DNA of 64,000 bases from an uncultured Actinomycetes bacterium (GTDB taxonomy: Bacteria; Actinomycetota; CADDZG01; JAHWKV01), in the NCBI GenBank assembly GCA_964501265.1, contig CAZCSK010000001.1, positions 86,314 through 150,313 of the forward strand, read 5' to 3'. A program made the position numbers and the translations under genes. The notes under the pieces were generated by a model. The model made no database searches, was not told where the DNA came from, and saw nothing but the letters and a program-made list of their open reading frames with translations. Of this stretch, positions 6,394 through 37,590 are shown piece after piece (within the stretch, counting starts at the first letter, position 1; each line of letters starts with the position of its first letter).

Positions 6394-6411
6394 GCGGTTC
6401 CACGTAATGAG

Positions 6412-6439
6412 GCAGGCCCTGCCGGTAGGCAGGGCCTGC
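6412..6439. terminator. Perfect 12-bp stem / 4-nt loop hairpin between two co-directional giant genes (putative intrinsic terminator, no U-tract)
   Basis: gcaggccctgcc-ggta-ggcagggcctgc read directly from the sequence. Lies between the stop of the 6474..10693 gene and the start of the 2317..6393 gene. Confidence 0.45.
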
Positions 6440-6473
6440 TCTCTAACTACTAGGTACGTGATTTTGGCTTAAC

Positions 6474-10693: not shown

Positions 10694-11000
10694 TCCTTGG
10701 GGTGTGCGTTACTTCTGAGGAGCGGTTCCTTCTAAACATCTAGTGTTCCCCTTTCGTAGGAGACCAAAGTTATTGGACAAACGGTTTCTGCCCAGACATT
10801 ACCGAGCTCAAACAATTTTCCTTTGTGATTTGTCTTCGTGATTGCCTGACCCTAGTGGAAATTGTCGCTTTTTGTCAAGTTTGAGAAGTGCCCCCCGGCC
10901 AGCCTCGCTGCCTGCCCTATCCTCCCGAGGAAGTCCTCCGGCTGGTAGCCTCTTGATTTCCTCCCAATTTAGGCCAAATCGTAGGAGTAAGGGCAAGAAA

Positions 11001-21878: not shown

Positions 21879-24186
21879 CGGGACCAACTTGAGAAACGCA
21901 ATTCGCAACTTCTTGTCCACACGGGGCTGGGAAACTGGGGGGGCGCTTGCATTCGCCTTGTTCGTTGCCTGGCCCCTTTTCCATCCTGGTCGGCTGGTAA
22001 CGGGTTTTGACACACTCACTTATTCGGTCCCCAATCACGCCGTTTCCATCGCGGCTCTGCGGGCGGGCCGTCTCCCGGCGTGGAACCCCTACATCTTTGG
22101 CGGGGCCCCTCACCTGGCTAACCCGCAGGTCGGGATCTTTTATCCACTCAAGTGGGCCTCGATCTTCGTCTCGCCTCATCGAGGACTTGTTCTACTGACC
22201 GGTCTGCATCTTCTCATTCTGGCACTCGGGATGGTCGTGCTCGTCGGAGGCGCTCTCAAGTTGCGACGGCCAGCCGCGTTGATTGCCGCAGTGATCGCTA
22301 CTGGCTCGGGAGTGGCTATGGCTCAGTCACTGCATTTCGAGCAGATCCTCACAATCGCTTGGGCCCCTTGGTTGCTGGCGGCGGTGGACGCCGCAGCTGC
22401 AGGAACGATCCGAATCCGCCGGGGAGTTGCGGCCGTAGCCTTAACTTGCGGACTCATGATTCTGGCCGGACACCAGCAACCCGCTTACGTGGTGCTCGTG
22501 CTGGCAGTTGCTTGGGCTTTGGCGCGGTGCATCGAGGTCAAATCAGTTACTCGTTTCCTCGGAGTGCTGGGCGGATTGCTGCTCGGGTTGGGCCTGGCTG
22601 CCGTTCAGCTTGTACCGACACTCGACCTTGTTAGTCGCTCGGTACGCGAGGGCGGACTCGCAATCAAAGGGCTCAGCGCCCCAGGCTACCTGCTCAATCT
22701 ACGCGACCTGCCGGCCGTACTCCTGGGCAACTCAGTTGCGCGTTCGATCATTAATGCTACCGGCGGCGTCGAAGCTAGCGCCTACATTGGCGCTGCAGGG
22801 TTTGTTCTCGTTCTCGTCGGTCTGATCGTGAGCATCAAGGTCGGGCGGCGAGTCTTGATCCTCACCCTCGCGGCGTCGGTGTTGGTCGCCACCATTTTGG
22901 CAGCAGGACCGGTCACGCCCTTCTTTCGCGCCGCCCACGCGGTCATTCCCGGCTTCTCGCTGTTTCGCGTTCCCGCACGCTGGGTGCTTGCGACAGACCT
23001 CGCACTCGCCGTCCTGGCCGGTTTCGGCGTTGACGCAATCGTGCAGAGGCATGTGCGGAGACGTGACGTCGTCGTCGTGCTGGCGGTCGGGGTGGTGATC
23101 GCGGTGCTCATCGGTGTGCGGGCTCTGCATCGCCCCTCGGGACCCGCAGTTATTGTTTGGCTGATCGCCGGAGGCACAATACTTGCGGGGGCTGCGATGG
23201 CGGGTCGCTTAGGCCGTCGACGGTTTGGGTTGGCGGTTCTCATACTTCTTCCCGTCCTCGAGCTTGGTGGCGCTGCGTCCCAGTCAACGCTTCCGAAACT
23301 CGCTCTCGACCTGCCGTTGCGCATTTATCCTCAGGCTGGAGATTCCGTGAAATTTCTTCAGGGGCATCCCGGGCGGACGCTTCCACTTGGGGGGGATCCC
23401 CAGGGCGCCCCCTTTTATAGCGCCGCTACATTGCGCCCCAACCTCAACGCGACGTACGGCGTCCGATCTCTCGATGGATACGATGGCGGCCCCCAAGTTT
23501 CGCGCCGTTGGGTACGCGCAATGGAGAGCCTGACCAAGCAGCCCTTTAACCCCGACCTCACTCTCAAGGCTCAGATGCCAGTCCCACTCGATGCCGAGAT
23601 GCTGGCCCGTTTCGGTGTGCGCTGGGCCCTTCTCGACACTGACATCAACCCCCCAAGTGTCGTCGTCCCAGGTTGGGGAGAGTCCGTTGCCCGTGAAGGA
23701 AACATTGGGGTGTGGGAAAACCCGCGGTACCAGGGGGAAGGATTTCTTTACGCGGCGACGAAGCCCCTAGGGAATCGCCCCGGTGAATCCCTCCGTGCTC
23801 TTGGGCTTGAAAGCAACTCGATCGCGCTTGTCGAGTCAGACGGCCCAGTCCTTGCCTGCTCCCTCGAGTGTGCAAGGTCTCCCGTCCCGGTAGGTCGTCC
23901 CCGGCCCGAGCGGATGACTGTCAATACCCAATCCGTTTCCCCCTCACTTCTGGTTGTGGCAGAACAGTGGGATCCGGGCTGGCGCGCCGAAGTGGACGGC
24001 AAGAAAGCGGTGGCGATACCGGTAGACGGATTCATGCTCGGGGTTTCGCTGCCCCCAGGCCATCACCGAATCAGACTCACATATCACGTCCCCGGCCTCG
24101 CGATTGGAACATCCCTGACGCTGCTTAGCTTGGCAATCACAACATTGCTGACGGTGAAGAGGCGCGCCGTTAACGCGTCGTTATGA
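21808..24186 (+). CDS. Large polytopic membrane protein, YfhO/GT-C-like (putative extracytoplasmic glycosyltransferase)
   Basis: ~13 predicted TM helices and an N-terminal region resembling YfhO-family proteins (…PAWNPYIFGGAPHLANPQVGIFYPL…), plus a large C-terminal extracytoplasmic domain. The true start may be TTG 21889, because the ORF-track start overlaps SpoIID by 70 nt. Confidence 0.55.
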   Translation: MERLQSRVDCLPTKQLGPAWEPPSGTNLRNAIRNFLSTRGWETGGALAFALFVAWPLFHPGRLVTGFDTLTYSVPNHAVSIAALRAGRLPAWNPYIFGGAPHLANPQVGIFYPLKWASIFVSPHRGLVLLTGLHLLILALGMVVLVGGALKLRRPAALIAAVIATGSGVAMAQSLHFEQILTIAWAPWLLAAVDAAAAGTIRIRRGVAAVALTCGLMILAGHQQPAYVVLVLAVAWALARCIEVKSVTRFLGVLGGLLLGLGLAAVQLVPTLDLVSRSVREGGLAIKGLSAPGYLLNLRDLPAVLLGNSVARSIINATGGVEASAYIGAAGFVLVLVGLIVSIKVGRRVLILTLAASVLVATILAAGPVTPFFRAAHAVIPGFSLFRVPARWVLATDLALAVLAGFGVDAIVQRHVRRRDVVVVLAVGVVIAVLIGVRALHRPSGPAVIVWLIAGGTILAGAAMAGRLGRRRFGLAVLILLPVLELGGAASQSTLPKLALDLPLRIYPQAGDSVKFLQGHPGRTLPLGGDPQGAPFYSAATLRPNLNATYGVRSLDGYDGGPQVSRRWVRAMESLTKQPFNPDLTLKAQMPVPLDAEMLARFGVRWALLDTDINPPSVVVPGWGESVAREGNIGVWENPRYQGEGFLYAATKPLGNRPGESLRALGLESNSIALVESDGPVLACSLECARSPVPVGRPRPERMTVNTQSVSPSLLVVAEQWDPGWRAEVDGKKAVAIPVDGFMLGVSLPPGHHRIRLTYHVPGLAIGTSLTLLSLAITTLLTVKRRAVNASL

Positions 24187-26059
24187 CCGCCCGGGCAACA
24201 TCCAGGCCCACCCATGTGCTTGATTGCGGCAGTCCAGGGGCATTACCGAACGTCCAGATCCTCCCGATGGAATCAAGCACCCAACCTCCTCCTCCGTCTG
24301 AGGTAAGAGCCAGTCCGCGCGCAGTGTCTTGGCCGGGTGCGTAGTAATTCGGAGACATCGATGGGGCTCCACCAAAGGAGTGAAGTCCACCCCAGCCGTC
24401 GAGCACGTACCCACTAATGCCATCTGGGCGCAAAGCGATCGCTCTTGCAATATCAAATCCGAAATAGGGAACGCCCAGTACCTTGGAAGCGACCCCCAGC
24501 GGGTGGACCCCGCCAAAGCCATCTAGGACGTAGCCGGCCGTGCCTGATGCATTCACAGCAATTCCCCGGGCGATATCCCACCCCCAATAAGGGCCACCAC
24601 GAGGAAGGGCGGCGCCACCGAATGGGTGAACACCTCCGTAGGCGTCAAGAACGTAGCCTGTCCCATTCGCCGGACCTTTAGCGGCCCCTCGCACTATGTC
24701 CCACCCGGCCCAATAGGAGTTCCCGGAGATCGGCAACGCGTCGCCATAAGGATGTAACCCGCCATATCCGTCAACGACATACCCGCCGCTGCTCGACCCG
24801 ATTGCGGCGCGCGCAATCGGCCACTTTGCCCAGTAGGAAGAGTGAGTCACCGCCGCTTGGCGCCCGGCGGGGTGCAGCCCTCCGTAACCGTCAAGCGTCA
24901 AGAGGCCCGGCCCGCTCGCTGCGGGGGTCCAACCGGGCAACGGGTGTGGCGGCGTGGAAAACACTTCCGACTGCACGTCGATACGCAGCTGGGGGATTAA
25001 GGGATAAGCGCGATCCCCTGGGCAGGCGGTTGCCGACACGTCTCGATGCCCACTGATCACGTCGAGCGTCACGTTCGTACCCGCTGGATAGCGCGTTGAC
25101 CCGCCGCTCACCGCCTGAATCTGAGCGCGTGAGTCGACTGTGTGATGGGTGAGTTTCCAGGCAAGTAGAGAACGCAACGCGGAACGAGAGGCGACCGGAA
25201 CCGGCACTGGCCCGTGCTCGCCAATCAAAGCGACACCTGTACTGCCGGTGTTGAACCCCCCGGAGTGCGCACCGATTACAGGTTTGGTCGTGCCTCCGAA
25301 CCGGCCCTCGTACACTCGGCCGAACCGATCGATAAGAAAGTTGTAACCGATGTCGCACCACCCGTTGCCAAGAACGTGGTAACGGTAGATGGCGCGCACA
25401 ATCGCCGGGGCCTCTTCTGCTGTGTAAGTGTTGGCGTTGACCGTGTGATGAACGAACGAATTCCTTAGTGAGCCAGCGTATTCGGGGGTTCCACAACCAG
25501 AGTTGGACGTGCGCAGGCTTTCATCGGCCCCCCATTCGGCGCGCGAGATTATCCCTGGCTGAGCAGGGGTCGCCGTCGCCGGAGAAATAGTGAACGGGCG
25601 AGGCTGCGAAACCTCCGAATGAATTAGATGCATCTTCAGCTGCGCGAGCGATCCCTCGGTGACTCGCACGTCCAGCGCGTCGACTCCACGCCCGATCCAG
25701 GTTGGGCCCGCCGATGTGGTGGCGCGATTCTCCATCGAACTCGGGTCCGGGCCTTCGTCGGGGTTGCCGTAAAGCTCGGTCCAGGGGGACCACCCGTCTC
25801 CTCTTCTAAGACGAATCTCCACTGCGCCCTCCACGTGGCCTTGCCACTCGAACCCAACGACTTCCGCCGGCTTGCTTAGCGACAGGAAACGGCGGTATCC
25901 GGGAGATGCTTCTTGAAGTGAACCGGACGCCAGGTCAACGATCCGGCTTTCCACGCGGGGCGGCCTCTGCTGCGGCGCGACCAAACCAGCCGATACCAAC
26001 GACAAAGCCACTACCAGCGGAGGCAGCCTTAAGGACCATCGATTCATGTGTGAAGACAC
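24170..26059 (-). CDS. N-acetylmuramoyl-L-alanine amidase (Amidase_2/PGRP domain) with C-terminal 'LDGxGGxHP…DIAR' repeats (~6x)
   Basis: Signal peptide; Amidase_2 motifs …FVHHTVNANTYTAEEAPAIVRAIYRYHVLGNGWCDIGYNFLIDRFGRVYEGR… The C-terminal ~255 aa are repeats, e.g. GYVLDGFGGVHPLGVASKVLGVPYFGFDIARAIAL. Confidence 0.8.
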   Translation of the reverse strand: MSSHMNRWSLRLPPLVVALSLVSAGLVAPQQRPPRVESRIVDLASGSLQEASPGYRRFLSLSKPAEVVGFEWQGHVEGAVEIRLRRGDGWSPWTELYGNPDEGPDPSSMENRATTSAGPTWIGRGVDALDVRVTEGSLAQLKMHLIHSEVSQPRPFTISPATATPAQPGIISRAEWGADESLRTSNSGCGTPEYAGSLRNSFVHHTVNANTYTAEEAPAIVRAIYRYHVLGNGWCDIGYNFLIDRFGRVYEGRFGGTTKPVIGAHSGGFNTGSTGVALIGEHGPVPVPVASRSALRSLLAWKLTHHTVDSRAQIQAVSGGSTRYPAGTNVTLDVISGHRDVSATACPGDRAYPLIPQLRIDVQSEVFSTPPHPLPGWTPAASGPGLLTLDGYGGLHPAGRQAAVTHSSYWAKWPIARAAIGSSSGGYVVDGYGGLHPYGDALPISGNSYWAGWDIVRGAAKGPANGTGYVLDAYGGVHPFGGAALPRGGPYWGWDIARGIAVNASGTAGYVLDGFGGVHPLGVASKVLGVPYFGFDIARAIALRPDGISGYVLDGWGGLHSFGGAPSMSPNYYAPGQDTARGLALTSDGGGGWVLDSIGRIWTFGNAPGLPQSSTWVGLDVARAVITTR

Positions 26060-28833: not shown

Positions 28834-29556
28834 TCAACGCTTTATTCTTAAGCCCACGTACACGAGCGGGCGCAGTATCGACCACCACCCCACAATCGGC
28901 TTCATCTTGGTCTGGCCGAGATGCTTGGGCGGGTAGATCTTGGTGACCGGCGCCTCTGCGGTCCGGTAGCCCAACTTGATTACCTTCAAGTACAGGTAGG
29001 GCTCCAACTCATACTCGTCCAGCCAACTTTGCGCCAGGTCGATGCGAGCATCTTTAAAGACCGACATCCGGATCGCGCGGAATCCGTTTGTGGAATCGGT
29101 CACGCGGCGACGTGCAACAAGGGAGAAAAGTAGAGGGTGAAGACGCGTGGCCAACTTGCGGTAGGCAGGCATAGGACCCAAGTTCAGTTCTTCCTTTAGA
29201 AAACGTGACCCTTGCACGAAGTCTGCACGGTCGGATGCGATGGGTTCAAGAAGATCGGGGATCTCCTGCGGTTCGTCCTTGTTGTTCCCTGCCATGACCA
29301 CCGCAACGTCGTACCCCCTTTCGAGACCGTATTGATATCCGCGCCGCAACGCTGCGCCGACTCCGACGGTTTTGCCCAGTTCCAGAACGGTCGCACCTCC
29401 GGCTCTGGCAACTTCCGCTGAGCGGTCGGTTGATCCGTCGTCCACCACCAGCAGTTCGTCGACGACGTCGCGTGGAGTACGACGGACGACTTCTCCGATC
29501 TTTTCCTGCTCGTCGAGAACTGGAACGATTGCCAACACCCTCAGCCCTTTATACAC
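28834..29556 (-). CDS. GT2 glycosyltransferase, polyprenyl-phosphate sugar synthase-like (Dpm1-like)
   Basis: …RVLAIVPVLDEQEKIGEVV…LVVDDGSTDRS… Small GT2 (240 aa), GTG start at 29556. Divergent from a GT-C-like membrane gene. Confidence 0.75.
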   Translation of the reverse strand: MYKGLRVLAIVPVLDEQEKIGEVVRRTPRDVVDELLVVDDGSTDRSAEVARAGGATVLELGKTVGVGAALRRGYQYGLERGYDVAVVMAGNNKDEPQEIPDLLEPIASDRADFVQGSRFLKEELNLGPMPAYRKLATRLHPLLFSLVARRRVTDSTNGFRAIRMSVFKDARIDLAQSWLDEYELEPYLYLKVIKLGYRTAEAPVTKIYPPKHLGQTKMKPIVGWWSILRPLVYVGLRIKR

Positions 29557-29589
29557 AGCTGTTTCCAGGATCTCTTCCCGCAGTCCGGG

Positions 29590-29616
29590 CTCAACGGACG
29601 GTAGATTAGCGCCGTG
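29590..29616 (+). promoter_or_regulatory. Putative leaderless-type promoter: -10 TAGATT, 6-nt spacer, GTG start codon
   Basis: cggTAGATTagcgccGTG read directly. The same arrangement and flanking sequence recur at 35803-35829. Confidence 0.4.
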
Positions 29617-31239
29617 GAGACAAGCTCCAAGAAGGGGTTCGGGATGTCAGACATCGGCATCAGAATACCGGATGCAGACAGGCACCGGCGCAAGATCGTC
29701 GCCGGGTTCTTCGCGCTACTGCTACTTCTCGGGGTTGCGATCTTCAACGACTTCGGAGTCTCCTGGGACGAGCCGGATTACTATCGCTACGGCCACCTCG
29801 TTCTGGATTTCTTCACCGGTGGGGGTCGGCAGTTCGAGACTTTTCTGAACCTCAGGCTCTACGGACCGGTCGTCCCAGTGGTCCAGGCAATCGTCGCAAA
29901 TGTGTTTGATCTCTCGCCCGGACAAGCCTTTCCCGGGGCTCACCTGGTTAACTACATCATCTTCTTGGCCGGGGCAGTTGCCTTCTACCACCTGTGCCTT
30001 CTGCAATTCGAAAGCTGGAGATGGGCACTTTTGGCTACTGCGATGCTCTTCTTGTCGCCTCGCATCTTCTCGCACGCATTCGTCAATCCAAAAGACGGAC
30101 CCTTTCTTGCCCTGTTTACGATCAACATCTACTTGCTGGTTCTCTTCCTCGAGAAACGCAAACTATTCCTCATTCCTCTGCTTGGCCTAACCACTGCGCT
30201 TCTAATCGATATTCGAGTAGCAGGGTTCCTAATTCCGGCCCTCGTGACGGTTGCGCTCGCGGCCGACGCGCTCACTGCGTCCGGTCGCCGTTTCCTGAAA
30301 TCGCTCTTGCCTCATCTCGGCCTCTACTTACTCGTGGTGGTCCCGACGGCGTTGGCGTTGTGGCCGTTTCTCTGGCCCAACCCGATTGGCCGGTTGGGCG
30401 AGTCGATGAGTTTGATGAGCAACTTCGTAGGGGGCCCCGTCGTCGCCGTTTACATGGGAATGGCACACGAGACGACCAGCCTGCCCTGGCATTACCTGCC
30501 GGTCTGGATTGGGATCACCACGCCCCCTGCTTACCTGGTGCTGGCTTCGGTCGGCCTTGTCTCGGGCTTGTGGCGAAATCCCATCGCGGCCTTTCGGACA
30601 CATTCGAAGGACCGTCATTTCTTCCTGTACGCGGCCTGGCTCCTTGCGGTTCCCTTGGCCATCATTGTCAGCGGAGCAAATCTTTACGACGAGTGGCGTC
30701 AGGTTAATTTCATCTATCCCGCGATGCTGATATTTGCCATCGCCGGTGCGAGATCGATCTACCTGCGTCTTGGCCGACAGAGGAACGTTGGACATCTTTT
30801 GCGCGTCGGGTTTGCGGCGGGCCTGGTAATCGTTATGGCATCCGTGGGGGTTCGCATGATTTCGCTGCACCCCTACGAGGCTCTCTACTTCAACTCACTC
30901 GCAAGGGGAGGAGATCGCGTGGAGAACAATTTCGAACTCGACTACTGGGGCATCTCATACAAGGAAGGACTCTCCTACCTGCTATCGCATTATCCTGGAC
31001 AACTCAAGGTTTATGGCTGCACAGCTCCTGCGGCCCACAACTCAATCTTGTTCGAAGATCGCGCGCGGCTCGAGTTCGTTTCGAAAGAAGATGCCGAATT
31101 CGGGCTGTGCGCCCCTCGGGAGTATTTCCTCGGATATGGGGGGGGCCGGGATGTGTATCTTTCGGAGTATCCGACGCTTTACAGCGTCGAGCGCGACGGA
31201 GCGACGTTCCTCTACGTGAAGGATCTAAGGGGCGCCTGA
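29614..31239 (+). CDS. Polytopic membrane protein, GT-C fold, GT39/ArnT/PMT-like (putative polyprenyl-P-sugar dependent glycosyltransferase)
   Basis: METSSKKGFGMSDIG…; ~11 TM helices and an acidic first extracytoplasmic loop (…VSWDEPDYY…) reminiscent of GT-C DE/DD motifs. Confidence 0.55.
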   Translation: METSSKKGFGMSDIGIRIPDADRHRRKIVAGFFALLLLLGVAIFNDFGVSWDEPDYYRYGHLVLDFFTGGGRQFETFLNLRLYGPVVPVVQAIVANVFDLSPGQAFPGAHLVNYIIFLAGAVAFYHLCLLQFESWRWALLATAMLFLSPRIFSHAFVNPKDGPFLALFTINIYLLVLFLEKRKLFLIPLLGLTTALLIDIRVAGFLIPALVTVALAADALTASGRRFLKSLLPHLGLYLLVVVPTALALWPFLWPNPIGRLGESMSLMSNFVGGPVVAVYMGMAHETTSLPWHYLPVWIGITTPPAYLVLASVGLVSGLWRNPIAAFRTHSKDRHFFLYAAWLLAVPLAIIVSGANLYDEWRQVNFIYPAMLIFAIAGARSIYLRLGRQRNVGHLLRVGFAAGLVIVMASVGVRMISLHPYEALYFNSLARGGDRVENNFELDYWGISYKEGLSYLLSHYPGQLKVYGCTAPAAHNSILFEDRARLEFVSKEDAEFGLCAPREYFLGYGGGRDVYLSEYPTLYSVERDGATFLYVKDLRGA

Positions 31240-31267
31240 GCGAGCACTAGAGCAAGCGCGGATTCGC

Positions 31268-33316
31268 TCATGTTGAGCGCCCTGTCTCCCGTTTGAATCG
31301 ATGCGCGAACCGCTTAAGGAACCGCTCGTACGGGAGTAGAAGGATGAGGCCCCCGAGGGCCGACAGAACGCGGGCTACCCTAACTTGCCACGGGAGCTCG
31401 TACGTCACCTGGAGAAGATGGCTTCCTGTGGGAACCCGCACGAGCATCTGGTCGAATTCGTCGGGCCGAGTTGCCAGTGGGCGGCCATCAAGAGAGGCCG
31501 TCCAGTACGGCGATTCGATCACCCGAACAAGAATAGTGGCCCGCACCTTTGCATCGATCCGCGCCGCGAACGACTTGGCACCTGAAGAGAGCAAAGTTAC
31601 TTCGGCTGAGTCGATTGCAACGATCCTTCCGGGTTTCGCCGGCAGAAACCGGAAAACGGCCAGGTCGTCGAATCGCGCCTGCTGACTGAACAAGTTAGGG
31701 AGCCGAGACATCACCTGGAACGGTAGACGGTTGCCCTCTGCAACAATCTCGGCCGCGCCCACAGTCTCGAGGTAGCCGGCAAGACGATTCGCCGCTGCAT
31801 CCAACGTCATCACGTCCGCCCAAGAGATCCCAAAGATAGACCTGTGATCGAAGTCGTTGGCAAAGTCTCGTACCGTATCGGCCCCTGGGCCGTACATCAG
31901 ATAGGCCTGCATCGGGCTCGGATGAGTCGACGTTCCTCCGATGAACTCTCGCTCAGCGAAGACACCGGTGAGCCCGAAGATGTGCGTAGCGCCGCTTCCG
32001 TACGTCGAACTCGTGAACACCACACGTCCGGAATGACCCGCAAGATATGCCCATAGATGCCCGACGGCTCCCTCTTTTGGACCTTCCAGTCGCAGAGCAA
32101 ATCTCTCCTCAGGGCCTAGCACCGAATGCTCCGCCACTATCCATCCCAATCCCAGTAACCCAACGAGGATGGGAGACAGAGCGCGCGTCCAGCGCAGACG
32201 AGGCAATGCCTCGATCCACAACACCGACATCACCGCGAACCAGAAGAAGATGTCGTCGAGGACTCGGTAAGGGTCGAAGTACGAGATGCGGAGGGGGCCC
32301 GCGATCAACATCATGAATGCCACCAGGAGAAGGAGCGGACCCGCCGCTTTGAACAAGACGAACCGTGGATCTTTCAAGCGGCCTCGCGCCAGTAGAAATC
32401 CCCCCGCAACCGCTGCGCAAATAAGCCACCAATCCCAGCCCCGGCTGTGTGGTGGATTCAAGAGAGATTGGAGCAGGTTCTTGCCCCACAGAAACGGGAT
32501 GGTCTCCCGGCGCATCAGTAGGAGTCCGGCCCACCAGACTCCGGCGAGAAACACGCCAGCTGCAAGTCCCGTCCATGCGCGAATTACGCCGCCCTTGCGA
32601 TCGCGGTTCAGCCCCCAAGCAGCCGCCGCAGCTACGACGAGGGTCGCTGGAAAGTGATACGGGTGACTCAGGATTAACGCCACTGCCGACGTCGCCAGTG
32701 TCAAGGTCCACAGACCGCGCCTTGCGGTCGCGCCCGAGGCTATCTTGGCGAACGCAACTACAACCACGGGCGCGATCGCCAGAGAAAGCCTCGAGCCGAG
32801 CGTGCCGTACCCGGCCCCGACAACCGTCCCTGACACGCCGAAGGCCATGTAGCCCGCAACAACTCCGGCAAGGGCCGCCACGTGCGGACGGACGTTAAGG
32901 AAAATGAGCGACAGCGTCACGGTAAGAGCCGGAGCGAGATAGACGATAACGACGAGGAGCCAATAGGCTCGCTCGTCATTTAGACCCAAGACCAGTCCGA
33001 GAGCCCCTCCTAGCAACGACGGCCCCGGCGGATAGAACTGAAGGTCGGGGTAGCCGCCGAAGATCTCCTGCACCCAACCAAATGGGTCCCTGCCGTCCAC
33101 GATCATCTGTCGTGCGTTGATCATCCGCGCAAGCCGGTCGGGATGGTCCGAAAGAGCAAAGGCCCCTTCAGACAGCAGCCCCTTCGCGGCTAGAAGCATT
33201 ACAGCCAGCGGCACGAAAACCCAGACGGACGCCCACAGGCGTCGGCGCAGGTGATGGTTCAAGATCTCTTCAGGCCCTGAGCGCTCCTTTGGCCCTCGTC
33301 TTTCACTGCAACGCAC
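31268..33316 (-). CDS. Large polytopic membrane protein with C-terminal extracytoplasmic domain (GT-C-like / polymerase-like), function unknown
   Basis: 682-aa ORF with >10 hydrophobic helices in the N-terminal 400 aa and a soluble C-terminal ~250 aa. Start uncertain; the ORF-track start overlaps the upstream gene by 58 nt. Confidence 0.5.
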   Translation of the reverse strand: MRCSERRGPKERSGPEEILNHHLRRRLWASVWVFVPLAVMLLAAKGLLSEGAFALSDHPDRLARMINARQMIVDGRDPFGWVQEIFGGYPDLQFYPPGPSLLGGALGLVLGLNDERAYWLLVVIVYLAPALTVTLSLIFLNVRPHVAALAGVVAGYMAFGVSGTVVGAGYGTLGSRLSLAIAPVVVVAFAKIASGATARRGLWTLTLATSAVALILSHPYHFPATLVVAAAAAWGLNRDRKGGVIRAWTGLAAGVFLAGVWWAGLLLMRRETIPFLWGKNLLQSLLNPPHSRGWDWWLICAAVAGGFLLARGRLKDPRFVLFKAAGPLLLLVAFMMLIAGPLRISYFDPYRVLDDIFFWFAVMSVLWIEALPRLRWTRALSPILVGLLGLGWIVAEHSVLGPEERFALRLEGPKEGAVGHLWAYLAGHSGRVVFTSSTYGSGATHIFGLTGVFAEREFIGGTSTHPSPMQAYLMYGPGADTVRDFANDFDHRSIFGISWADVMTLDAAANRLAGYLETVGAAEIVAEGNRLPFQVMSRLPNLFSQQARFDDLAVFRFLPAKPGRIVAIDSAEVTLLSSGAKSFAARIDAKVRATILVRVIESPYWTASLDGRPLATRPDEFDQMLVRVPTGSHLLQVTYELPWQVRVARVLSALGGLILLLPYERFLKRFAHRFKRETGRST

Positions 33317-34785
33317 AGGATCGAAGTCCCCACCGGAAGCGACACGAGCGCTATGAGGACGCGCTCCAAACGCGTGAGAACAAGCGCGGCGCGGTCGAGA
33401 AACGGCGATGACTTATCGAGACCGAGCTTGCTGCGTGCATCACCGGGCCGCCGCCTGCTCGCCCATACGAATGGCGTGAGCCAGCTGAATATGTGGCTGA
33501 TAAACAGAACGCGGAACCCGCTCTCGGCAAGTTCTCGACGCAAGCTATTTTTGCTGTAACGGCGGTGATGACCGAGAAGTTCATCGGCCGAGCTCCAAAG
33601 CCATTGATGAGCAGGAACGGTGACTATCAAGCGACCGCCGGGCTCGAGGATGCGACGAGCTTCTCGCAAAACCTCGTCCGGATTTTCGACGTGCTCTATA
33701 ACGTCGAGAAGGCATGCATTTGAGATGAACCCATCGGGAATGGCGACGCGGTGGATGTCGCCGACAAATCCCGACAGCGCGTGCCTGTCGCGCGCACGCT
33801 TGGCAAGTTCGTGCGATCCCTCAACGATAAAAAGGTGCTCTGGGGGCCAACCAAGCATGGCGGTCACTCCACCCGCACCTGCGCCAAGGTCCACGAGCCA
33901 AGAAGATCCTTTGCCCCAACGTCTCAGAGCCCAGGAGACGAAGGCCGCCTTGCTTCGGAACCACCAGTGGCGAGCGTCGGCGTCCATCAGCGCCTCGGCA
34001 TTTGCTGCGTCAAAGATTCCATCCGCTTGGGGGATCGGTGGATTCTGCTTTCGCAACGCCCTCACCCTTAGCGCGATTCTTGGAATAGCCAAGACCATGT
34101 TCATACCGTCTCTAAAGACGCGCACACGGGATCTTTCGTCGTGACGCCAGGAGATGGCGATCTCTTCTACACCGATGTCGAGAGCGCGCGCGAGGGCGAC
34201 AATTTCTACATCCCATGCGAAGCCGACTTCGGTTGAGGCAGGGAGGATCTTTTTCCACGTCTGCGTTGAGGCAGCCTTGGCTCCACACTGAGTGTCGACG
34301 ATCCCGGGCGTCAACACGAGCTGCACGAGACGGTTGTAGGCGCGCCCAAGAAGTTCCCGCATTCGATTCTCATGGCGAAGCAATTCGGAGCCAGCGAGAT
34401 CCCTCGATCCGATGACCAACTCATGACCCCTTTGTGCTGCCTTCAGAATGACTTCGAGGTCGTGGAGCGGCGTGGCCAGGTCGACATCACAAAATCCGGC
34501 GAGATCGGTCCGCGCGCTCAACAACCCGGCAGTGATCGCGGCGCCTTTGCCGTAGTGCCCTGCGCGGATTAGACGGCCCGGTACATGAAGGTTGTTGAGC
34601 AGAAACTTCTCGACGCGCTGCGAGGTTTCATCGGCGCTGCCGTCGTCCACAAAAATTAGCTCACTACCCTCGGGCATCGAGACGATGAATGCGGCGAGTT
34701 CCTCTGCAGACTCTTCGAACCGCTCTTCTTCGTTAAATAGGGGAACCACTAGCGAAACGGTCTTCACAACACGCGAGCCAGTCAT
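33259..34785 (-). CDS. Bifunctional GT2 glycosyltransferase (N-terminal, Dpm1-like) / class I SAM methyltransferase (C-terminal) fusion
   Basis: N-terminus VSLVVPLFNEEERFEES…IFVDDGSADET…; C-terminus …LVDLGAGAGGVTAML… followed by …ILEPGGRLIVTVP…. Confidence 0.7.
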   Translation of the reverse strand: MTGSRVVKTVSLVVPLFNEEERFEESAEELAAFIVSMPEGSELIFVDDGSADETSQRVEKFLLNNLHVPGRLIRAGHYGKGAAITAGLLSARTDLAGFCDVDLATPLHDLEVILKAAQRGHELVIGSRDLAGSELLRHENRMRELLGRAYNRLVQLVLTPGIVDTQCGAKAASTQTWKKILPASTEVGFAWDVEIVALARALDIGVEEIAISWRHDERSRVRVFRDGMNMVLAIPRIALRVRALRKQNPPIPQADGIFDAANAEALMDADARHWWFRSKAAFVSWALRRWGKGSSWLVDLGAGAGGVTAMLGWPPEHLFIVEGSHELAKRARDRHALSGFVGDIHRVAIPDGFISNACLLDVIEHVENPDEVLREARRILEPGGRLIVTVPAHQWLWSSADELLGHHRRYSKNSLRRELAESGFRVLFISHIFSWLTPFVWASRRRPGDARSKLGLDKSSPFLDRAALVLTRLERVLIALVSLPVGTSILCVAVKDEGQRSAQGLKRS

Positions 34786-35723
34786 CGTGACCGTTTCCCC
34801 ATCTCACTTGGATATTTCCCGTTGTTGAACTGAGCAAATCTCTCGCGTAAGGGCTCCCTCAACAGGCGGTCCATCTTTGCCGTTAACGATTCGCGCACCA
34901 TCCGGCGGCGGCACACAAAGAACGAATGCATGACGGGGACCACTCCTTCGAGAGTGAGTCGATCGTCCAGTGCTAGCAGATAAGCAAGAGCCTTGTTCGC
35001 CTCTTCGTCCTGCCTGGCGAACTCTTCTATGTTGTTCCAAAGTATCTGATAGCCGATGCCGCCGCCCAGATCTTTGCGTTCGACAAAGTCGAAGTAGTGC
35101 CCGATGGCGCGAAACAGTTCAGCAGAATGAACTGCCTCAGTTGGCTCCCAGGCCAGCAGGTGGCGAAGAGCGGGGCGAAGCGGGTGAGATGTTCTGAAAC
35201 GCTCGGGCAGCCCGGCATTCGCCTCTTCCATAGCAGCCGCGTGGCGATCGGAGTACTGATTCCGGCTGGGCCCAACATACTCCCAGTTAACAAAGAGCCC
35301 CTCGGGGGTCAAGCAGGTTGAGAGGACGCGAGTGATCCTGTAGAGGTACTGAGCATGGTGCAACGCCGCCACGTTCACTATTAGGTCGTAACTCTTGCGT
35401 GGGGAGAATGACCGAAAGTCCGACTTGAAGTAAGAGATGGGGCGATCCTTCCTAAGCTCTTTCGCCTCCTCTAGATAGGAGGGAGACACATCGAAGGCAT
35501 CGATGTGTGCTGCGATCCCTCGATCGATTAGATCGCGATCCACCCATCCATTCCCGCAGCCGATTACTAGTGCCTGATCGAGTGGCGGTGTTGCGTAACG
35601 CACCTTGAAGTAGTCCATCCACCAGACGTTGGAGTCGCCCGTGGCCTTACGACATAGATGGGCCAACACGCCCGGCAACTCATTCCAATACTTGTCGACA
35701 TAGTGGCTGAGGGCGTCAGCCAT
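34782..35723 (-). CDS. Class I SAM-dependent methyltransferase
   Basis: …ALVIGCGNGWVDRDL…AFDVSPSYLEEA…; ATGA overlap with the upstream gene. Confidence 0.65.
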   Translation of the reverse strand: MADALSHYVDKYWNELPGVLAHLCRKATGDSNVWWMDYFKVRYATPPLDQALVIGCGNGWVDRDLIDRGIAAHIDAFDVSPSYLEEAKELRKDRPISYFKSDFRSFSPRKSYDLIVNVAALHHAQYLYRITRVLSTCLTPEGLFVNWEYVGPSRNQYSDRHAAAMEEANAGLPERFRTSHPLRPALRHLLAWEPTEAVHSAELFRAIGHYFDFVERKDLGGGIGYQILWNNIEEFARQDEEANKALAYLLALDDRLTLEGVVPVMHSFFVCRRRMVRESLTAKMDRLLREPLRERFAQFNNGKYPSEMGKRSR

Positions 35724-35800
35724 CGAGGATTGCCAGAACTGGAACGAATGCCACCACCTTCATCCCTTTGTACACGGCTGCTGTCTCTTCCCGTAGGCCG
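35716..35800 (-). pseudogene. Remnant 5' end of a Dpm1-like GT2 gene (≈20 codons) retained within a duplicated promoter cassette
   Basis: The reverse strand encodes …REETAAVYKGMKVVAFVPVLAILDG*, parallel to the N-terminus (LREEILETA)VYKGLRVLAIVPVLDEQ of the intact GT2 at 28834..29556. The surrounding ~115 nt are ~80-85% identical to 29521-29635. The rest of ORF-track entry 35716..36045 has no GT2 continuity. Confidence 0.4.
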
Positions 35801-35802
35801 GG

Positions 35803-35829
35803 CCCGGTGAGCGGTAGATTGAGACCGTG
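35803..35829 (+). promoter_or_regulatory. Second copy of the TAGATT-N6-GTG leaderless-type promoter
   Basis: gcggTAGATTgagaccGTG. The flanking ~60 nt are conserved with 29560-29616. Confidence 0.4.
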
Positions 35830-37590
35830 GAGACAGCCTCGAAGGACGAGATATCCGCCGCCTCTGTGGCAGACACCGGATCTCGCGAACGCGATAGCGC
35901 GGCGCGCGTCACGCTTGTACTCGTTCTCTTCCTCGCCGTAGCCGTTTACGCAACGTGGCCGCTTTCCCGGTACATGGGTAGCAGGGTACCCCAAAATCTT
36001 TTTGACTCTCTTGAAAACGCGTGGATCTTCGGGTGGAACGCGCACGCCTTTACAACCAACCCCCTCAAGATATTCAACGCGAATATCTTCTATCCAGAAC
36101 CGCTGACCCTAGCCTACGCGGAGAACCTGCTGGGCGTTTCCGTCTTCGTCGCGCCGATCTTCTGGCTGACTAAAAACGCGCTTCTGACCGCCAACATCGC
36201 CTACCTGCTCATGTACGCGGTGGCCGGGCTTGGCGTATACCTCCTTGTGAGGGAACTAGGCGGATCGCGCGTGGGTTCTTTTCTTGCAGGTTTCGCCTTT
36301 TCGGTGGCACCTTACCGGCTCATTCAAATAGCCCATCCACACGTGGTTGCAATTCACCTTGTCCCTTTCATCCTCCTGCTGTTGATCCGGCTTCGGCGTT
36401 CGCGTTCGAGATGGGTTCTAGTGGGGATAGCTCTTCTCGTCGCACTCCAGATGTGGTCTTCCATTACTGGCGGTTTGATCATGCTTATTGCAATCACCGG
36501 CTTCGGGATTTGGGAAGTCATCCGACTCCGGACGAGATCGCTACCGGTGGTTGGACGAGCTGCTGCCTCTGTCATCGTGGGCTTGGTTCTGGCGATCCCT
36601 GTGGCTCTTCCCTACATCGAGGTCCGCAAGCTTCACCCGGAGTTCCAGCACTCACCTGGCGAGATATTTACCTTCTCCGCGCTCCCTTCTTCCTACCTGT
36701 CTCCGGCCGAGGGACGGGGTCCGCTTGTCCGGTCATCGAACGATTGGCTAGACAAGCGATTCCGAGCCCGCGATGGGTTCTGGGAAAAAACGCTTTTCCC
36801 CGGTTACTGGCTGGGGGGTGCATTCCTGCTAACTCTTGCGCTCCTTGGCGTCGCGCTGGTGAGAAGGCGAAAGGCACCCTGGATAGAGCCGGCGGCGCTA
36901 TTCCTGTTCATCGCAACGATTGGGTTCGTGGCTAGCCTCGGCCCTCGCTACGGAGGGCCGAGCGGGATTAGGCTCCCATTTAGCCTGGTGTCAGATCTCA
37001 TTCCCGGGGGTTTCGTGCGCGTGCCGGCCAGATTCGGAACCGTCACTCTCCTCGGAATGTCGATTGCCGCGGGAGTAGTTCTCGGGGGGATCAGATCGCG
37101 TCCCGCCCGCGCGCTCATAGCAGTCTCAGGACTCTTCCTACTTCTCGAGGCCGCGCCATCCCCCTTTCCAATGATCGAGCCCCCTCCTCTTAGTAGGGCG
37201 CTCCAGCAGGTCCCCCGCTCCGGCGCAGTATTGGCGCTTCCCACAACCCAGGTGAACGAGAAGGGTAACGTGGTCGAGGGGAGCATCTTCCAGGATACGC
37301 GCAACCTCTACCTCTCCACCGGCAATTTCGCCCCGATGGTCAACGGATACGGGGCATTCCATCCTCAAACTTACTGGGAGGTCATGTCCGCCGTGCAGGA
37401 CTTCCCGAGCGCCGTCGGCATGCAGAGGTTGCAGGTGGTCGGTGTCAAGACAGTGGTGATTCAGACGGAGAGGATCAAAGGAACTCCCTGGAGTGAAGTG
37501 GTAGAGCGGCTGGAAGCATGGAAGGGAGTGCGCAGAATCGCTTCGGGCGAGCAGATCGTCGTCTTCGACATTTCGATGGCGAGTGACTAA
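35827..37590 (+). CDS. Polytopic membrane protein (putative GT-C-like glycosyltransferase/polymerase); N-terminal 7 aa and 5' region paralogous to gene 29614
   Basis: METASKDE…; ~12 TM helices and extracytoplasmic loops. Conserved upstream cassette. Confidence 0.55.
   Translation: METASKDEISAASVADTGSRERDSAARVTLVLVLFLAVAVYATWPLSRYMGSRVPQNLFDSLENAWIFGWNAHAFTTNPLKIFNANIFYPEPLTLAYAENLLGVSVFVAPIFWLTKNALLTANIAYLLMYAVAGLGVYLLVRELGGSRVGSFLAGFAFSVAPYRLIQIAHPHVVAIHLVPFILLLLIRLRRSRSRWVLVGIALLVALQMWSSITGGLIMLIAITGFGIWEVIRLRTRSLPVVGRAAASVIVGLVLAIPVALPYIEVRKLHPEFQHSPGEIFTFSALPSSYLSPAEGRGPLVRSSNDWLDKRFRARDGFWEKTLFPGYWLGGAFLLTLALLGVALVRRRKAPWIEPAALFLFIATIGFVASLGPRYGGPSGIRLPFSLVSDLIPGGFVRVPARFGTVTLLGMSIAAGVVLGGIRSRPARALIAVSGLFLLLEAAPSPFPMIEPPPLSRALQQVPRSGAVLALPTTQVNEKGNVVEGSIFQDTRNLYLSTGNFAPMVNGYGAFHPQTYWEVMSAVQDFPSAVGMQRLQVVGVKTVVIQTERIKGTPWSEVVERLEAWKGVRRIASGEQIVVFDISMASD

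What the first reader, a model, noticed from the sequence alone, without database searches (positions are those of the whole stretch)
29521..29640. Duplicated ~115-nt promoter cassette (TAGATT-N6-GTG, leaderless-type) upstream of two different GT-C-like membrane genes; second copy retains a decayed GT2 5' end
Regions 29521-29635 and 35742-35850 are ~80-85% identical. Each contains …CTCTTCCCG.AG.CCGGGC…CGG.GGTAGATT.AG.CCGTGGAGACA.GCTC.AAG…, with the GTG start of a membrane-protein gene 6 nt after a TAGATT -10-like hexamer. That spacing is what leaderless transcripts show.

Both genes begin METSSK / METASK, but the proteins diverge afterwards. At the first copy the divergent gene is an intact Dpm1-like GT2 (28834-29556). 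At the second copy only ~20 codons of that GT2 5' end survive (…VYKGMKVVAFVPVLAILDG*).

This suggests a mobile or duplicated regulatory module co-ordinating expression of the membrane GT-C-like genes, or a past segmental duplication of a GT2/GT-C gene pair.
Basis: seen in the sequence. Interest (0 to 1): 0.6.

Follow-up and report, generated by a model that had tools for sequence, protein, structure and literature searches.

The report
Duplicated two-way promoter flanking inserted genes
A ~116-base stretch carrying the start signals of two back-to-back sugar-transfer genes occurs twice, 6.2 kb apart, on either side of a gene block that sits between those two genes only in this lineage, so each end of the block has a copy of the promoter region; this is a tidy but fairly ordinary case of promoter re-use in an uncultured actinobacterium.

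Summary
The repeat is real. 29516-29635 and 35735-35848 align with E=9e-18: 79% identity over aligned bases, one 6-nt indel, and only two copies in the window. Each copy spans a whole divergent gene-start region:
- 14 codons of a polyprenyl-phosphate-sugar GT2 (minus strand);
- its leader with an SD-like GGGAAGAG;
- CGG-TAGATT placed 6 nt before a GTG that is the first possible start of a GT-C-fold glycosyltransferase;
- 8 codons of that gene.

The two GT-C genes, A and B, are only remote homologues (14% identity at profile level).

Synteny suggests the origin. In a relative (L019) the same GT2 operon is directly divergent from the B orthologue. In another (L015) the genes lying between the repeats form a stand-alone, circularly permuted module. 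The best reading is that this module was inserted into the GT2<>B start region, duplicating ~116 bp of it.

The GT2 stub at copy B is an intact 19-codon ORF, not a decaying remnant. Its TGA overlaps the ATG of an SD-less methyltransferase gene, and it is conserved above the neutral rate.

Leaderless initiation is plausible but untested. I found no evidence of mobility and none for duplication of a whole gene pair. Interest is modest: a new member of the known promoter re-use phenomenon.

The parts
29516..29635 (.). Repeat copy R1: the head of the GT2 gene, the intergenic region and the first 8 codons of the plus-strand gene
   Evidence: blastn E=9e-18 to R2; nhmmer 29516-29637; orthologous copy in L011:26-147
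35735..35848 (.). Repeat copy R2: GT2 head stub, intergenic region (6 nt shorter) and the first 8 codons of gene B
28834..29556 (-). Intact 240-aa polyprenyl-phosphate sugar GT2 (DPMS/ArnC/PpgS-like), first gene of the GT2-oxidoreductase-aminotransferase-acetyltransferase operon. Its first 14 codons lie inside R1
   Evidence: PF00535; PDB 5mlz DPMS E=3e-11; NCBIfam AglJ/PpgS below cut-off; conserved operon in L002, L004, L006, L019
29572..29579 (-). SD-like GGGAAGAG in the GT2 leader (GGGAGGAG in L011); conserved block of the repeat
   Evidence: sequence; three-way conservation
29602..29607 (+). TAGATT -10-like hexamer preceded by CGG, 6 nt before GTG 29614. With the next base it reads TAGATTA, so TAATCT is a -10-like hexamer on the minus strand (29603-29608)
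   Evidence: conserved in R2 and L011; CGN-TANNNT consensus at 7-12 bp before the TSS in M. tuberculosis; reciprocal -7T/-11A geometry of bidirectional promoters
29614..31239 (+). Gene A: GT-C-fold membrane glycosyltransferase (PMT_2/ArnT-like), 541 aa from GTG 29614. Alternative SD-preceded ATG at 29644 (531 aa)
   Evidence: AlphaFold pLDDT 89.9 with Foldseek hits to ALG12/STT3/ArnT
31268..33316 (-). 682-aa multi-pass membrane protein, last gene of the minus-strand unit. Absent from the close relative L011 and from L015
33259..34785 (-). GT2 + SAM-methyltransferase fusion (508 aa)
   Evidence: orthologues in L011 (77% over the C-terminus) and L015 (51%)
34782..35723 (-). SAM-dependent methyltransferase (313 aa). 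ATG 35723 is the native start and has no SD
   Evidence: L018 orthologue aligns from residue 1; homologue N-termini; no upstream in-frame start
35716..35775 (-). GT2-head stub ORF: GTG, 14 GT2-derived codons, 5 new codons and TGA. It overlaps the methyltransferase ATG by 8 nt (ATGGCTGA)
   Evidence: 36/42 identical to R1 against 63% at neutral sites
35785..35792 (-). SD-like GGGAAGAG, 9 nt before the stub GTG
35815..35820 (+). TAGATT -10-like hexamer (CGG-TAGATT-G), 6 nt before GTG 35827
35827..37590 (+). Gene B: GT-C-fold membrane glycosyltransferase of a different family (587 aa); no SD before any candidate start
   Evidence: AlphaFold pLDDT 93.0 with Foldseek hits to STT3/DPY19/ArnT/PglB

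Best explanation
R1 and R2 are two copies of one divergent gene-start region, the one that originally lay between the GT2 operon (minus strand) and GT-C gene B (plus strand).

Origin (inferred). A module of two convergent, promoterless units was inserted into that region. The units are gene A on the plus strand and methyltransferase -> GT2-MT fusion on the minus strand. About 116 bp ended up duplicated, from GT2 codon 14 to B codon 8, so that a copy lies on each side of the insert. The 682-aa gene is absent from the close relative L011.

Consequence (inferred). All four outward- or inward-reading units now start at a copy of the same region:
- R1 serves the GT2 operon and gene A.
- R2 serves the methyltransferase unit and gene B.

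Mechanism (inferred, not shown):
- CGG-TAGATT acts as a TANNNT-type -10 element that starts plus-strand transcripts at or next to the GTG. That is leaderless for B. For A it is either leaderless or a 30-nt leader to the SD-preceded ATG 29644.
- The near-symmetric TAGATT(A/G) may also fire leftwards, giving a ~35-40-nt leader with GGGAAGAG for the GT2 start.
- At R2 that start now opens a 19-codon stub ORF. Its stop overlaps the ATG of the SD-less methyltransferase, so the stub probably delivers ribosomes to it by termination-reinitiation.

The net effect would be co-expression of lipid-linked sugar-donor synthesis with the GT-C transferases that use those donors.
For: Shown:
- The repeat is significant and has only two copies.
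- L019 carries acetyltransferase-aminotransferase-oxidoreductase-GT2 (72.5% id) directly divergent from the B orthologue (45% id), with nothing between. L006/L007 also pair this GT2 with a B-family gene.
- L015 carries MT (54% id) <40 nt> A (52%) convergent with GT2-MT (51%). This is a circular permutation of the block between R1 and R2, flanked by the same outer neighbours as in the window.
- The homology edges fall 11 nt before the MT's native ATG and about 8 nt before A's own ATG 29644.
- A and B are only remote homologues.
- The close relative L011 (A 85% id) keeps R1 with TAGATT-N6-GTG. The GTG-to-ATG stretch stays in frame despite a 12-nt indel.
- Site patterns (all identical 81; A=L011 15; A=B 9; L011=B 9) place R2 outside the A/L011 pair, so the duplication is old and has not been homogenised since.
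- Identity of R1 to R2 (90/116) and of the stub (36/42) exceeds the 63% seen at four-fold sites between the window and L011 (p=7e-4 and 1e-3).
- The variable positions sit in the promoter spacer and discriminator. The conserved blocks are the GT2 codons, the SD-like block, CG(G/A)-TAGATT, and CCGTGGA.ACA.

Supporting context:
- TANNNT at 6-7 nt before the first possible start occurs at 5 of 43 ORFs against 0.7 expected. One case is a 30-bp divergent intergenic region.
- The TANNNT and CGN context, the absence of a -35 consensus, and use of GTG for leaderless starts are documented in M. tuberculosis.
- The reciprocal -7T/-11A geometry of bidirectional promoters is described.
Against: - No transcription or translation data exist for this organism. 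Every functional step (the TSS at the GTG, leftward firing, uORF coupling) is inferred.
- The E. coli-type promoter scan finds nothing in either copy, and no -35-like element is conserved.
- On the minus strand the -10-like hexamer is TAATCT only in R1. It is CAATCT in R2 and L011.
- For gene A the gene caller preferred ATG 29644 with an AAGGGG SD.
- A 116-bp target duplication is far longer than transposase-type duplications, and I cannot name the mechanism. A Campbell-type integration would need the incoming circle to carry R already.
- The selection test assumes R2 split from R1 no later than the window/L011 split. The 15:9:9 site pattern supports that only weakly.
- Taken on their own, the intergenic part (36/50) and the 8 plus-strand codons (18/24) are not significantly above neutral.
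- The rest of the genome could not be searched.
Confidence: 0.6

Rival explanations
1. Segmental duplication of a whole GT2/GT-C gene pair. The second GT2 was then deleted down to a stub, and the second GT-C gene diverged or was replaced.
For: A GT2 head is present at both copies. Both plus-strand genes have the GT-C fold and are detectable remote homologues. A tandem GT4 duplication elsewhere in the window shows that such events happen here (D13/D14/D16).
Against: - A and B share 14% identity at profile level and nothing by BLASTP. Each has its own orthologues at 45-85% identity in other genomes. They therefore diverged long before a 79%-identical DNA repeat could have formed.
- Homology stops abruptly on both sides.
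- L019 shows GT2<>B as a single pair, and L015 shows the intervening genes as a separate module.
Confidence: 0.12
2. A mobile promoter-carrying element (MITE-like or otherwise transposable) that has landed in front of two membrane genes.
For: The same upstream DNA lies before non-homologous genes, which is the operational signature of 'putative mobile promoters'.
Against: - Only two copies in 64 kb, even with a profile search.
- No terminal inverted repeats of the block (one search finds only a short internal 8-nt pair).
- No transposase or integrase in the window.
- Both ends of the block are gene heads in frame with real genes.
- Pattern scans of 185,579 reference genomes and of JGI metagenomes gave only chance hits in unrelated taxa.
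Confidence: 0.05
3. Two independently evolved promoters kept alike by gene conversion, or made alike by convergence on the same regulator-binding sites.
For: The conserved blocks are interspersed with freely varying spacers. There is partial dyad symmetry, and 8-nt inverted arms bracket the intergenic part.
Against: - The similarity includes 14 codons of a GT2 gene that has no business at R2. That is descent, not convergence.
- R2 is no closer to R1 than to the orthologue in L011 (9 against 9 sites), so there has been no conversion since that split.
- No palindromic operator is conserved in all three sequences.
Confidence: 0.05
4. The conserved core is a transcribed RNA or DNA signal rather than a promoter. 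Candidates are a 5'-leader structure, a riboswitch, or an ops-like pause and recruitment site for a NusG paralogue, with the real promoter further upstream.
For: - R2 reads AGCGGTAGATTG, 11/12 to the ops consensus GGCGGTAGNNTG (consensus recalled from memory). L011 also matches 11/12 and R1 10/12.
- Polysaccharide loci are classic targets of such antiterminators (general knowledge).
Against: - No Rfam match at E<=1.
- Folding energies are not different from shuffles.
- RNAalifold finds 1-2 compensatory pairs only.
- ops-like 12-mers with up to 1 mismatch occur 5 times in the window against 3.9 expected.
- CGN-TANNNT is the ordinary actinobacterial -10 context.
- No NusG-like gene was seen in the window.
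- The TAG of the motif is an in-frame stop immediately before the first start codon, leaving only 6 nt of 'leader'.
Confidence: 0.05
5. Chance similarity of GC-rich coding sequence.
For: None beyond the moderate GC content (57-60%).
Against: E=9e-18 within the window. The core pattern occurs twice against 0.05 expected, and 0 of 100 shuffles reach 2.
Confidence: 0.01

Closest known systems
Putative mobile promoters / promoter re-use in prokaryotes (Matus-Garcia, Nijveen & van Passel 2012, PMC3488235)
   Same: Homologous upstream DNA in front of non-homologous genes within one genome, with neither the upstream nor the downstream coding bodies aligning. Family size 2 is the commonest class in that survey's definition.
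   Different: Identity is 79% (75% with the gap), just under their 80% threshold. The block extends into both flanking genes (14 and 8 codons), serves both strands, and flanks an inserted module. Nothing suggests it moves on its own.
Leaderless TANNNT promoters of Actinobacteria (M. tuberculosis TSS map, Cortes et al. 2013, PMC3898074)
   Same: A TANNNT hexamer 7-12 bp before the start, CGN immediately upstream, no -35 consensus, and GTG accepted as a leaderless start codon. Here CGG-TAGATT-N6-GTG matches exactly.
   Different: No TSS data here. The organism is an uncultured Actinomycetota MAG, not a mycobacterium. Gene A has an alternative SD-led ATG 30 nt downstream.
Symmetric bidirectional promoters (Warman et al. 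2021, as summarised in PMC10268837 and PMC12825309)
   Same: The -10 hexamers on opposite strands overlap so that -7T and -11A pair reciprocally. TAGATTA in R1 reads TAGATT on top and TAATCT on the bottom, which predicts divergent TSSs about 18 bp apart.
   Different: In R2 and L011 the bottom hexamer is CAATCT (it lacks -12T). The divergent TSSs have not been measured. That work is in enterobacteria.
Polyprenyl-phosphate sugar GT2 plus GT-C transferase pairs (e.g. ArnC/ArnT; mycobacterial PpgS with its GT-C partner, from general knowledge)
   Same: A DPMS/ArnC/PpgS-like GT2 sits next to GT-C-fold enzymes, with enzymes that make an amino/acetamido sugar. This gives the functional logic for co-expressing the two strands.
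   Different: The sugar, acceptor and pathway are unknown. All NCBIfam hits are far below the equivalog cut-offs.
Translational coupling through overlapping stop/start codons and short upstream ORFs (general knowledge)
   Same: The stub ORF's TGA lies 8 nt into the overlap with the methyltransferase ATG (ATGGCTGA). The downstream gene has no SD.
   Different: Here the upstream ORF is a recycled fragment of another gene's head. Coupling has not been tested.
JUMPstart/ops elements upstream of enterobacterial polysaccharide clusters (recalled from memory)
   Same: A conserved short non-coding block recurs in front of different envelope-polysaccharide operons. There is a partial match to the ops 12-mer.
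   Different: The match is at chance level in this window, sits at the promoter rather than in a long leader, and no RfaH-like factor is known here.

Membership tests
Putative mobile promoter (PMP) family, Matus-Garcia et al. 2012 | Upstream regions align over >50 nt at >=80% identity | tested here: not met
   116 columns, 87 identities: 75% with the gap, 79% of aligned bases. Only the 46-nt sub-block reaches 87% (D17). Threshold.
Putative mobile promoter (PMP) family, Matus-Garcia et al. 2012 | Downstream and upstream coding sequences (beyond about +50 nt) are not homologous | tested here: met
   A against B: no BLASTP hit. GT2 against methyltransferase are different families. Flanks are not similar.
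Putative mobile promoter (PMP) family, Matus-Garcia et al. 2012 | Not an IS, MITE or riboswitch | tested here: met
   No Rfam hit; no terminal inverted repeats; no transposase in the window.
Leaderless actinobacterial gene start | TANNNT hexamer ending 6-7 nt before the start codon; ATG or GTG start | tested here: met
   TAGATT-N6-GTG in R1, R2 and L011; consensus.
Leaderless actinobacterial gene start | No SD, and no better alternative start | tested here: inconclusive
   B: the GTG is the first possible start, and there is no SD before it or before GTG 35866. A: ATG 29644 has an AAGGGG SD and was the gene caller's choice. In-frame 12-nt indel in L011.
Leaderless actinobacterial gene start | Transcription start coincides with the first base of the start codon | not testable with these tools
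   No transcriptome for this uncultured organism.
Symmetric bidirectional promoter (Warman 2021 type) | -11A and -7T of the two strands pair reciprocally (TANNNTA) | tested here: met
   R1 TAGATTA. R2 and L011 TAGATTG keep the bottom-strand -11A and -7T but not -12T.
Symmetric bidirectional promoter (Warman 2021 type) | Divergent TSS pair 7-25 (typically 18) bp apart | not testable with these tools
   Needs TSS mapping.
GT-C fold glycosyltransferases (genes A and B) | Multi-pass membrane GT-C fold | tested here: met
   A: pLDDT 89.9; ALG12, STT3, ArnT, AftA, PglB at E 1e-6 to 1e-4. B: pLDDT 93.0; STT3, DPY19, ArnT, PglB at E 3e-8 to 1e-4. Pfam hits are only sub-threshold.
GT-C fold glycosyltransferases (genes A and B) | Acidic catalytic residue(s) in the first extracytoplasmic loop | tested here: inconclusive
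   Invariant D52 (WDE) in the A family and D60 in the B family lie just after TM1. Their position in the models was not inspected.
Polyprenyl-phosphate glycosyltransferase GT2 (DPMS/ArnC/PpgS-like) | GT2 catalytic domain with closest solved and curated relatives among lipid-phosphate sugar synthases | tested here: met
   PF00535 E=3e-12; 5mlz DPMS and ArnC. AglJ, PpgS and DPhHxTase are the best NCBIfam hits but all lie below the equivalog cut-offs, so this is family level only.
Transposable element / MITE | Terminal inverted repeats, short target duplication, multiple copies | tested here: not met
   The whole genome was not available.
ops / NusG-paralogue recruitment site | ops-type 12-mer in the transcribed leader, plus a cognate NusG paralogue | tested here: not met
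   Best match 11/12, but at chance frequency. It lies 6 nt before the first start codon. No NusG-like gene in the window. The rest of the genome is unseen.

The most novel reading that the evidence does not exclude
Insertion of a promoterless, convergent two-unit gene module into a compact bidirectional (leaderless) promoter, with duplication of the whole ~116-bp start region, may be a one-step way of 'plugging in' new glycan-modifying genes. Both ends of the insert would inherit a promoter, a start codon and a few head codons. The recycled GT2 head would then be kept by selection as a coupling uORF for the methyltransferase operon. If this is general, long start-region duplications would mark recent module insertions in actinobacterial envelope-glycan islands.
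Probability: 0.25. Interest if true: 0.5.

Novelty: new member of a known kind. Interest (0 to 1): 0.3.

Why it matters
It gives a concrete, datable example of how genes that arrive without promoters can become expressed. The whole start region of a divergent gene pair is copied, so four transcription units of one pathway share one regulatory sequence. It also shows a gene fragment (14 codons of a GT2) persisting as a probable coupling ORF rather than decaying. That matters for annotation: the stub and the true starts of A and the methyltransferase are easy to miscall. For envelope-glycan biology in uncultured Actinomycetota, it links lipid-linked sugar-donor synthesis and two different GT-C transferases into one predicted co-regulated set. 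None of this overturns current understanding.

Tried and rejected
1. Whole-genome search for further copies. The source MAG is not in the reference-genome collection. The 18-base core pattern hit only a Pseudomonadales and a Pirellulales contig, which are chance matches.
2. A gapped pattern across the block found three AT-rich, unrelated JGI metagenome contigs.
3. Rfam at E<=1 over 28-38 kb found nothing.
4. The sigma-70/terminator consensus scan found nothing in either copy. It is uninformative for TANNNT-type promoters.
5. Single-strand folding of the putative leaders and 5' ends gave z-scores from -1.9 to +1.1, unremarkable. RNAalifold on three sequences gave no convincing covariation.
6. 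Extension of homology to the right (TGTCAGACATCGG against TGGCAGACACCGG) has p=0.08, so I did not accept it.
7. Upstream regions of GT2 orthologues in more distant genomes (L002-L004, L006, L015-L019) do not align with the block. The cassette sequence is therefore lineage-specific, and only L011 is informative.
8. Sequence and profile searches of A and B against PDB sequences found nothing. Fold search was needed.
9. The ops/RfaH-like reading was considered and set aside.
10. The idea that the methyltransferase lost its N-terminus at the junction was rejected. The L018 orthologue aligns from residue 1.


Full report
**The observation**

The window carries a direct repeat at 29516-29635 and 35735-35848, 6,219 nt apart. 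blastn of either copy against the whole window finds only the other copy (E=8.9e-18). There are 87 identities in 116 columns with one 6-nt gap, which is 79% of aligned bases. MAFFT and the repeat finder agree.

The core GGTAGATT-N4-CCGTGGAGAC occurs exactly twice even with three mismatches allowed, against 0.05 expected. An nhmmer profile of the block finds no third copy in the window or in any fetched locus. Sequence just outside the block is not significantly similar (right p=0.08, left p=0.78).

Otherwise everything described is there.

**Anatomy**

Each copy is a complete divergent gene-start region. From left to right on the plus strand it holds:

1. The first 14 codons of a GT2 gene, read on the minus strand (GTG at 29556 / 35775).
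2. A 57-nt (R1) or 51-nt (R2) intergenic stretch. It contains CTCTTCCC, which is GGGAAGAG on the minus strand (SD-like; GGGAGGAG in the relative L011).
3. CGG-TAGATT.
4. Six variable bases.
5. A GTG (29614 / 35827) that is the first possible start, because the TAG of TAGATT is an in-frame stop.
6. Eight codons, METSSKKG / METASKDE.

At R1 the GT2 is intact (28834-29556, 240 aa, PF00535). Its closest solved relatives are dolichyl-phosphate mannose synthase and ArnC, and its best NCBIfam hits are AglJ and PpgS, below cut-off. It heads a conserved GT2 - GFO/IDH/MocA oxidoreductase - DegT aminotransferase - hexapeptide acetyltransferase operon.

At R2, homology to GT2 ends after codon 14. Five new codons and a TGA follow (stub ORF 35775-35716). 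That TGA overlaps, by 8 nt (ATGGCTGA), the ATG 35723 of a SAM-methyltransferase gene.

The two plus-strand genes:

| | Gene A | Gene B |
|---|---|---|
| Coordinates | 29614-31239 | 35827-37590 |
| AlphaFold pLDDT | 89.9 | 93.0 |
| Best solved folds | STT3, ArnT, ALG9/12, AftA, PglB, DPY19 | same set |

Both have the GT-C fold but belong to different families. BLASTP finds nothing between them. Profile-profile comparison gives 14% identity at E=8e-6. The shared N-terminal leader is disordered in both models.

**Source and relatives**

The window comes from an uncultured Actinomycetota MAG. The identical proteins lie on an NCBI contig of 228 kb and on a Logan assembly of SRR6868923. The pattern scans of genomes and metagenomes returned only chance hits in unrelated taxa.

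**Origin**

Four relatives are informative.

- **L019** (GCA_044869025.1) has acetyltransferase-aminotransferase-oxidoreductase-GT2 (72.5% identical) directly divergent from the B orthologue (45%), with nothing in between. L006/L007 likewise pair this GT2 with a B-family gene.
- **L015** carries the genes that lie between the repeats as a stand-alone module: methyltransferase (54%) <40 nt> A (52%), convergent with the GT2-methyltransferase fusion (51%). The outer neighbours match those in the window, a repeat-rich secreted protein on one side and a CarboxypepD_reg protein on the other. Its gene order is a circular permutation of the window's A / GT2-MT / MT, cut in the short MT<>A spacer.
- **L018** shows that the methyltransferase's MA... 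N-terminus is native. The R2 junction therefore lies 11 nt upstream of an intact gene. The R1 junction lies about 8 nt upstream of A's own ATG 29644, which the gene caller chose as the start in the window; in L011 it chose the ATG at the equivalent position.
- **L011**, a close relative (A 85% identical), has the same GT2<R1>A junction.

The simplest history is as follows. A single GT2<>B start region received the module [A -> <- GT2-MT <- MT], and about 116 bp, from GT2 codon 14 to B codon 8, ended up on both sides of the insert. The 682-aa membrane gene (31268-33316) is absent from L011, where 33 nt replace 2.07 kb of the window.

I cannot name the mechanism that made a duplication this long. 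It could be a small tandem duplication followed by insertion, Campbell-type integration of a circle that already carried R, or a staggered break. This step is inferred.

**Age and constraint**

Across the block, the site patterns are: all three identical 81, A=L011 15, A=B 9, L011=B 9. R2 is therefore no closer to R1 than to the L011 orthologue. The duplication is at least about as old as that split, and the copies have not been homogenised since.

Four-fold degenerate sites of gene A are 63% identical between the window and L011. Against that yardstick:

| Region compared (R1 vs R2) | Identity | p |
|---|---|---|
| Whole block | 90/116 | 7e-4 |
| GT2 stub | 36/42 | 1e-3 |
| Intergenic part alone | 36/50 | not significant |
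| Eight plus-strand codons alone | 18/24 | not significant |

The whole block and especially the stub are too similar to be drifting. The differences cluster in the promoter spacer and in the 6-nt discriminator. The GT2 codons, the SD-like block, CG(G/A)-TAGATT and CCGTGGA.ACA are invariant in all three sequences. So the stub is better described as retained than as decayed.

**Likely function**

All of this section is inferred.

CGG-TAGATT-N6-GTG matches the actinobacterial pattern mapped in M. tuberculosis:
- TANNNT at 7-12 bp before the TSS;
- CGN immediately upstream in a large share of promoters;
- no -35 consensus;
- GTG used for leaderless genes as often as for others.

In this window a TANNNT 6-7 nt before the first possible start occurs at 5 of 43 ORFs, against 0.7 expected. 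One case is a 30-bp divergent spacer at 59615-59644. There both a 3-hydroxyacyl-CoA dehydrogenase (its Pfam domain starts at residue 6) and an aminotransferase must start essentially without leaders.

For B, no candidate start has an SD, so leaderless initiation at 35827 is the best reading.

For A, the same transcript could be translated from its 5'-terminal GTG or from ATG 29644, which has an AAGGGG SD. The GTG-to-ATG stretch stays in frame across a 12-nt indel in L011, which is weak support for translation from the GTG.

TAGATTA in R1 also reads TAATCT on the other strand. This is the reciprocal -7T/-11A arrangement of symmetric bidirectional promoters. In R2 and L011 the bottom hexamer is CAATCT. 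A leftward start there would give a 35-40-nt leader carrying GGGAAGAG for the GT2 start.

At R2 that start opens the 19-codon stub, which terminates on top of the SD-less methyltransferase ATG. This is a plausible termination-reinitiation arrangement for the MT -> GT2-MT -> 682-aa unit.

The outcome would be co-expression of lipid-linked sugar-donor synthesis (minus strand) with the GT-C transferases that consume such donors (plus strand). All of this sits inside a 45-kb envelope-glycan island that includes rhamnose genes, a Wzm/Wzt exporter, GT2/GT4 genes, YfhO and LytR-CpsA-Psr.

**Rivals**

- **Whole gene-pair duplication.** Disfavoured by the remoteness of A and B, the sharp edges, and the L019/L015 synteny.
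- **A mobile element.** Disfavoured by copy number, the lack of terminal repeats and transposase, and the fact that both ends are gene heads.
- **Gene conversion or convergence.** Disfavoured by the 9:9 site pattern and by the presence of GT2 codons at R2.
- **An RNA element or ops-like site.** Disfavoured by Rfam, folding and alifold results, and by the chance-level frequency of ops-like 12-mers.
- **Chance.** Excluded.

**Comparison with known things**

Conceptually this is promoter re-use, as catalogued under 'putative mobile promoters'. It meets the non-homologous-flanks criteria but narrowly fails the 80% identity threshold, and nothing suggests autonomous mobility. It works like a leaderless TANNNT promoter and like a symmetric bidirectional promoter. 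In both cases the sequence-level features are met and the defining TSS features are untestable here.

I rate it a new member of a known kind, of modest interest. The appealing feature is the geometry: a duplicated two-way start region on both sides of an inserted, otherwise promoterless module, with a recycled gene head kept as a probable coupling ORF.

**Unexplained**

A short inverted repeat brackets the intergenic part. It differs between copies while staying complementary:
- GCTGTCTC/GAGACAGC in R2, 8/8;
- CTGTTTCC/GGAAACAG in L011, 8/8;
- CTGTTTCC/GGAGACAA in R1, 6/8.

The block's profile also weakly matches its own reverse complement. Three sequences are too few to tell promoter pseudo-symmetry from a hairpin or from paired operator sites.

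Noticed in passing
window 31229-33302 (gene 31268-33316, minus strand) vs L011 1724-1757: A 682-aa multi-pass membrane protein gene (no Pfam or NCBIfam hit) is present in the window but absent from the close relative L011, and also from L015. In both of those, gene A is directly convergent with the GT2-methyltransferase fusion. This is a 2.07-kb indel inside the module.
   Followed up: partly
window 59612-59647: A 30-bp divergent intergenic region with back-to-back TANNNT-start arrangements: TATATT-N6-GTG (59614, minus; 3-hydroxyacyl-CoA dehydrogenase) and TAACAT-N7-ATG (59645, plus; class-V aminotransferase). Both genes must be leaderless or nearly so. Similar arrangements occur at 50768 (minus, DUF4153, TAACTT-N6-GTG) and 55932 (plus, carboxyltransferase, TAAACT-N7-GTG).
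   Followed up: partly
window 29559-29566 / 29616-29623; 35780-35787 / 35830-35837; L011 69-76 / 126-133: A short inverted repeat brackets the intergenic part of the cassette. It changes between copies while staying complementary (8/8 in R2 and L011 with different sequences, 6/8 in R1). The block also weakly matches its own reverse complement. Significance unknown.
   Followed up: partly
window 35810-35821 (also 29597-29608; L011 107-118): AGCGGTAGATTG matches the enterobacterial ops consensus GGCGGTAGNNTG at 11 of 12 positions. Such near-matches occur at chance frequency in the window (5 against 3.9 expected), so this is probably a by-product of the CGN-TANNNT promoter context.
   Followed up: yes
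window 6588-7235, 20334-21869, 24182-24913, 40158-40631: A repeat unit of about 41-45 aa (…GY.LDGYGG.H…) recurs in tandem in several large secreted or cell-wall proteins: the SpoIID-domain protein, the Amidase_2 protein, the CarboxypepD_reg protein, and a 1,400-aa surface protein. It is possibly a shared wall-binding or propeller repeat.
   Followed up: no
window 15537-17474 and 17471-19093: Two adjacent GT4 (Glycos_transf_1) genes share patches of about 80% DNA identity at a 1,625-nt (and in one case 1,544-nt) offset. This is a tandem gene duplication inside the glycan island.
   Followed up: no
window 2317-10739 (minus strand): Two very large surface proteins (about 1,360 and 1,420 aa; penicillin-amidase, Calx-beta, cadherin-like and Big_9 domains) carry internal DNA repeats of about 336 and 680 nt periods at 62-88% identity.
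   Followed up: no
L019 3753-3769: In the relative GCA_044869025.1 the GT2 and B-orthologue start codons are only 11 nt apart. Each gene's promoter must therefore lie inside the other gene's head, an even more compact version of the divergent arrangement. It has no sequence similarity to the cassette.
   Followed up: partly
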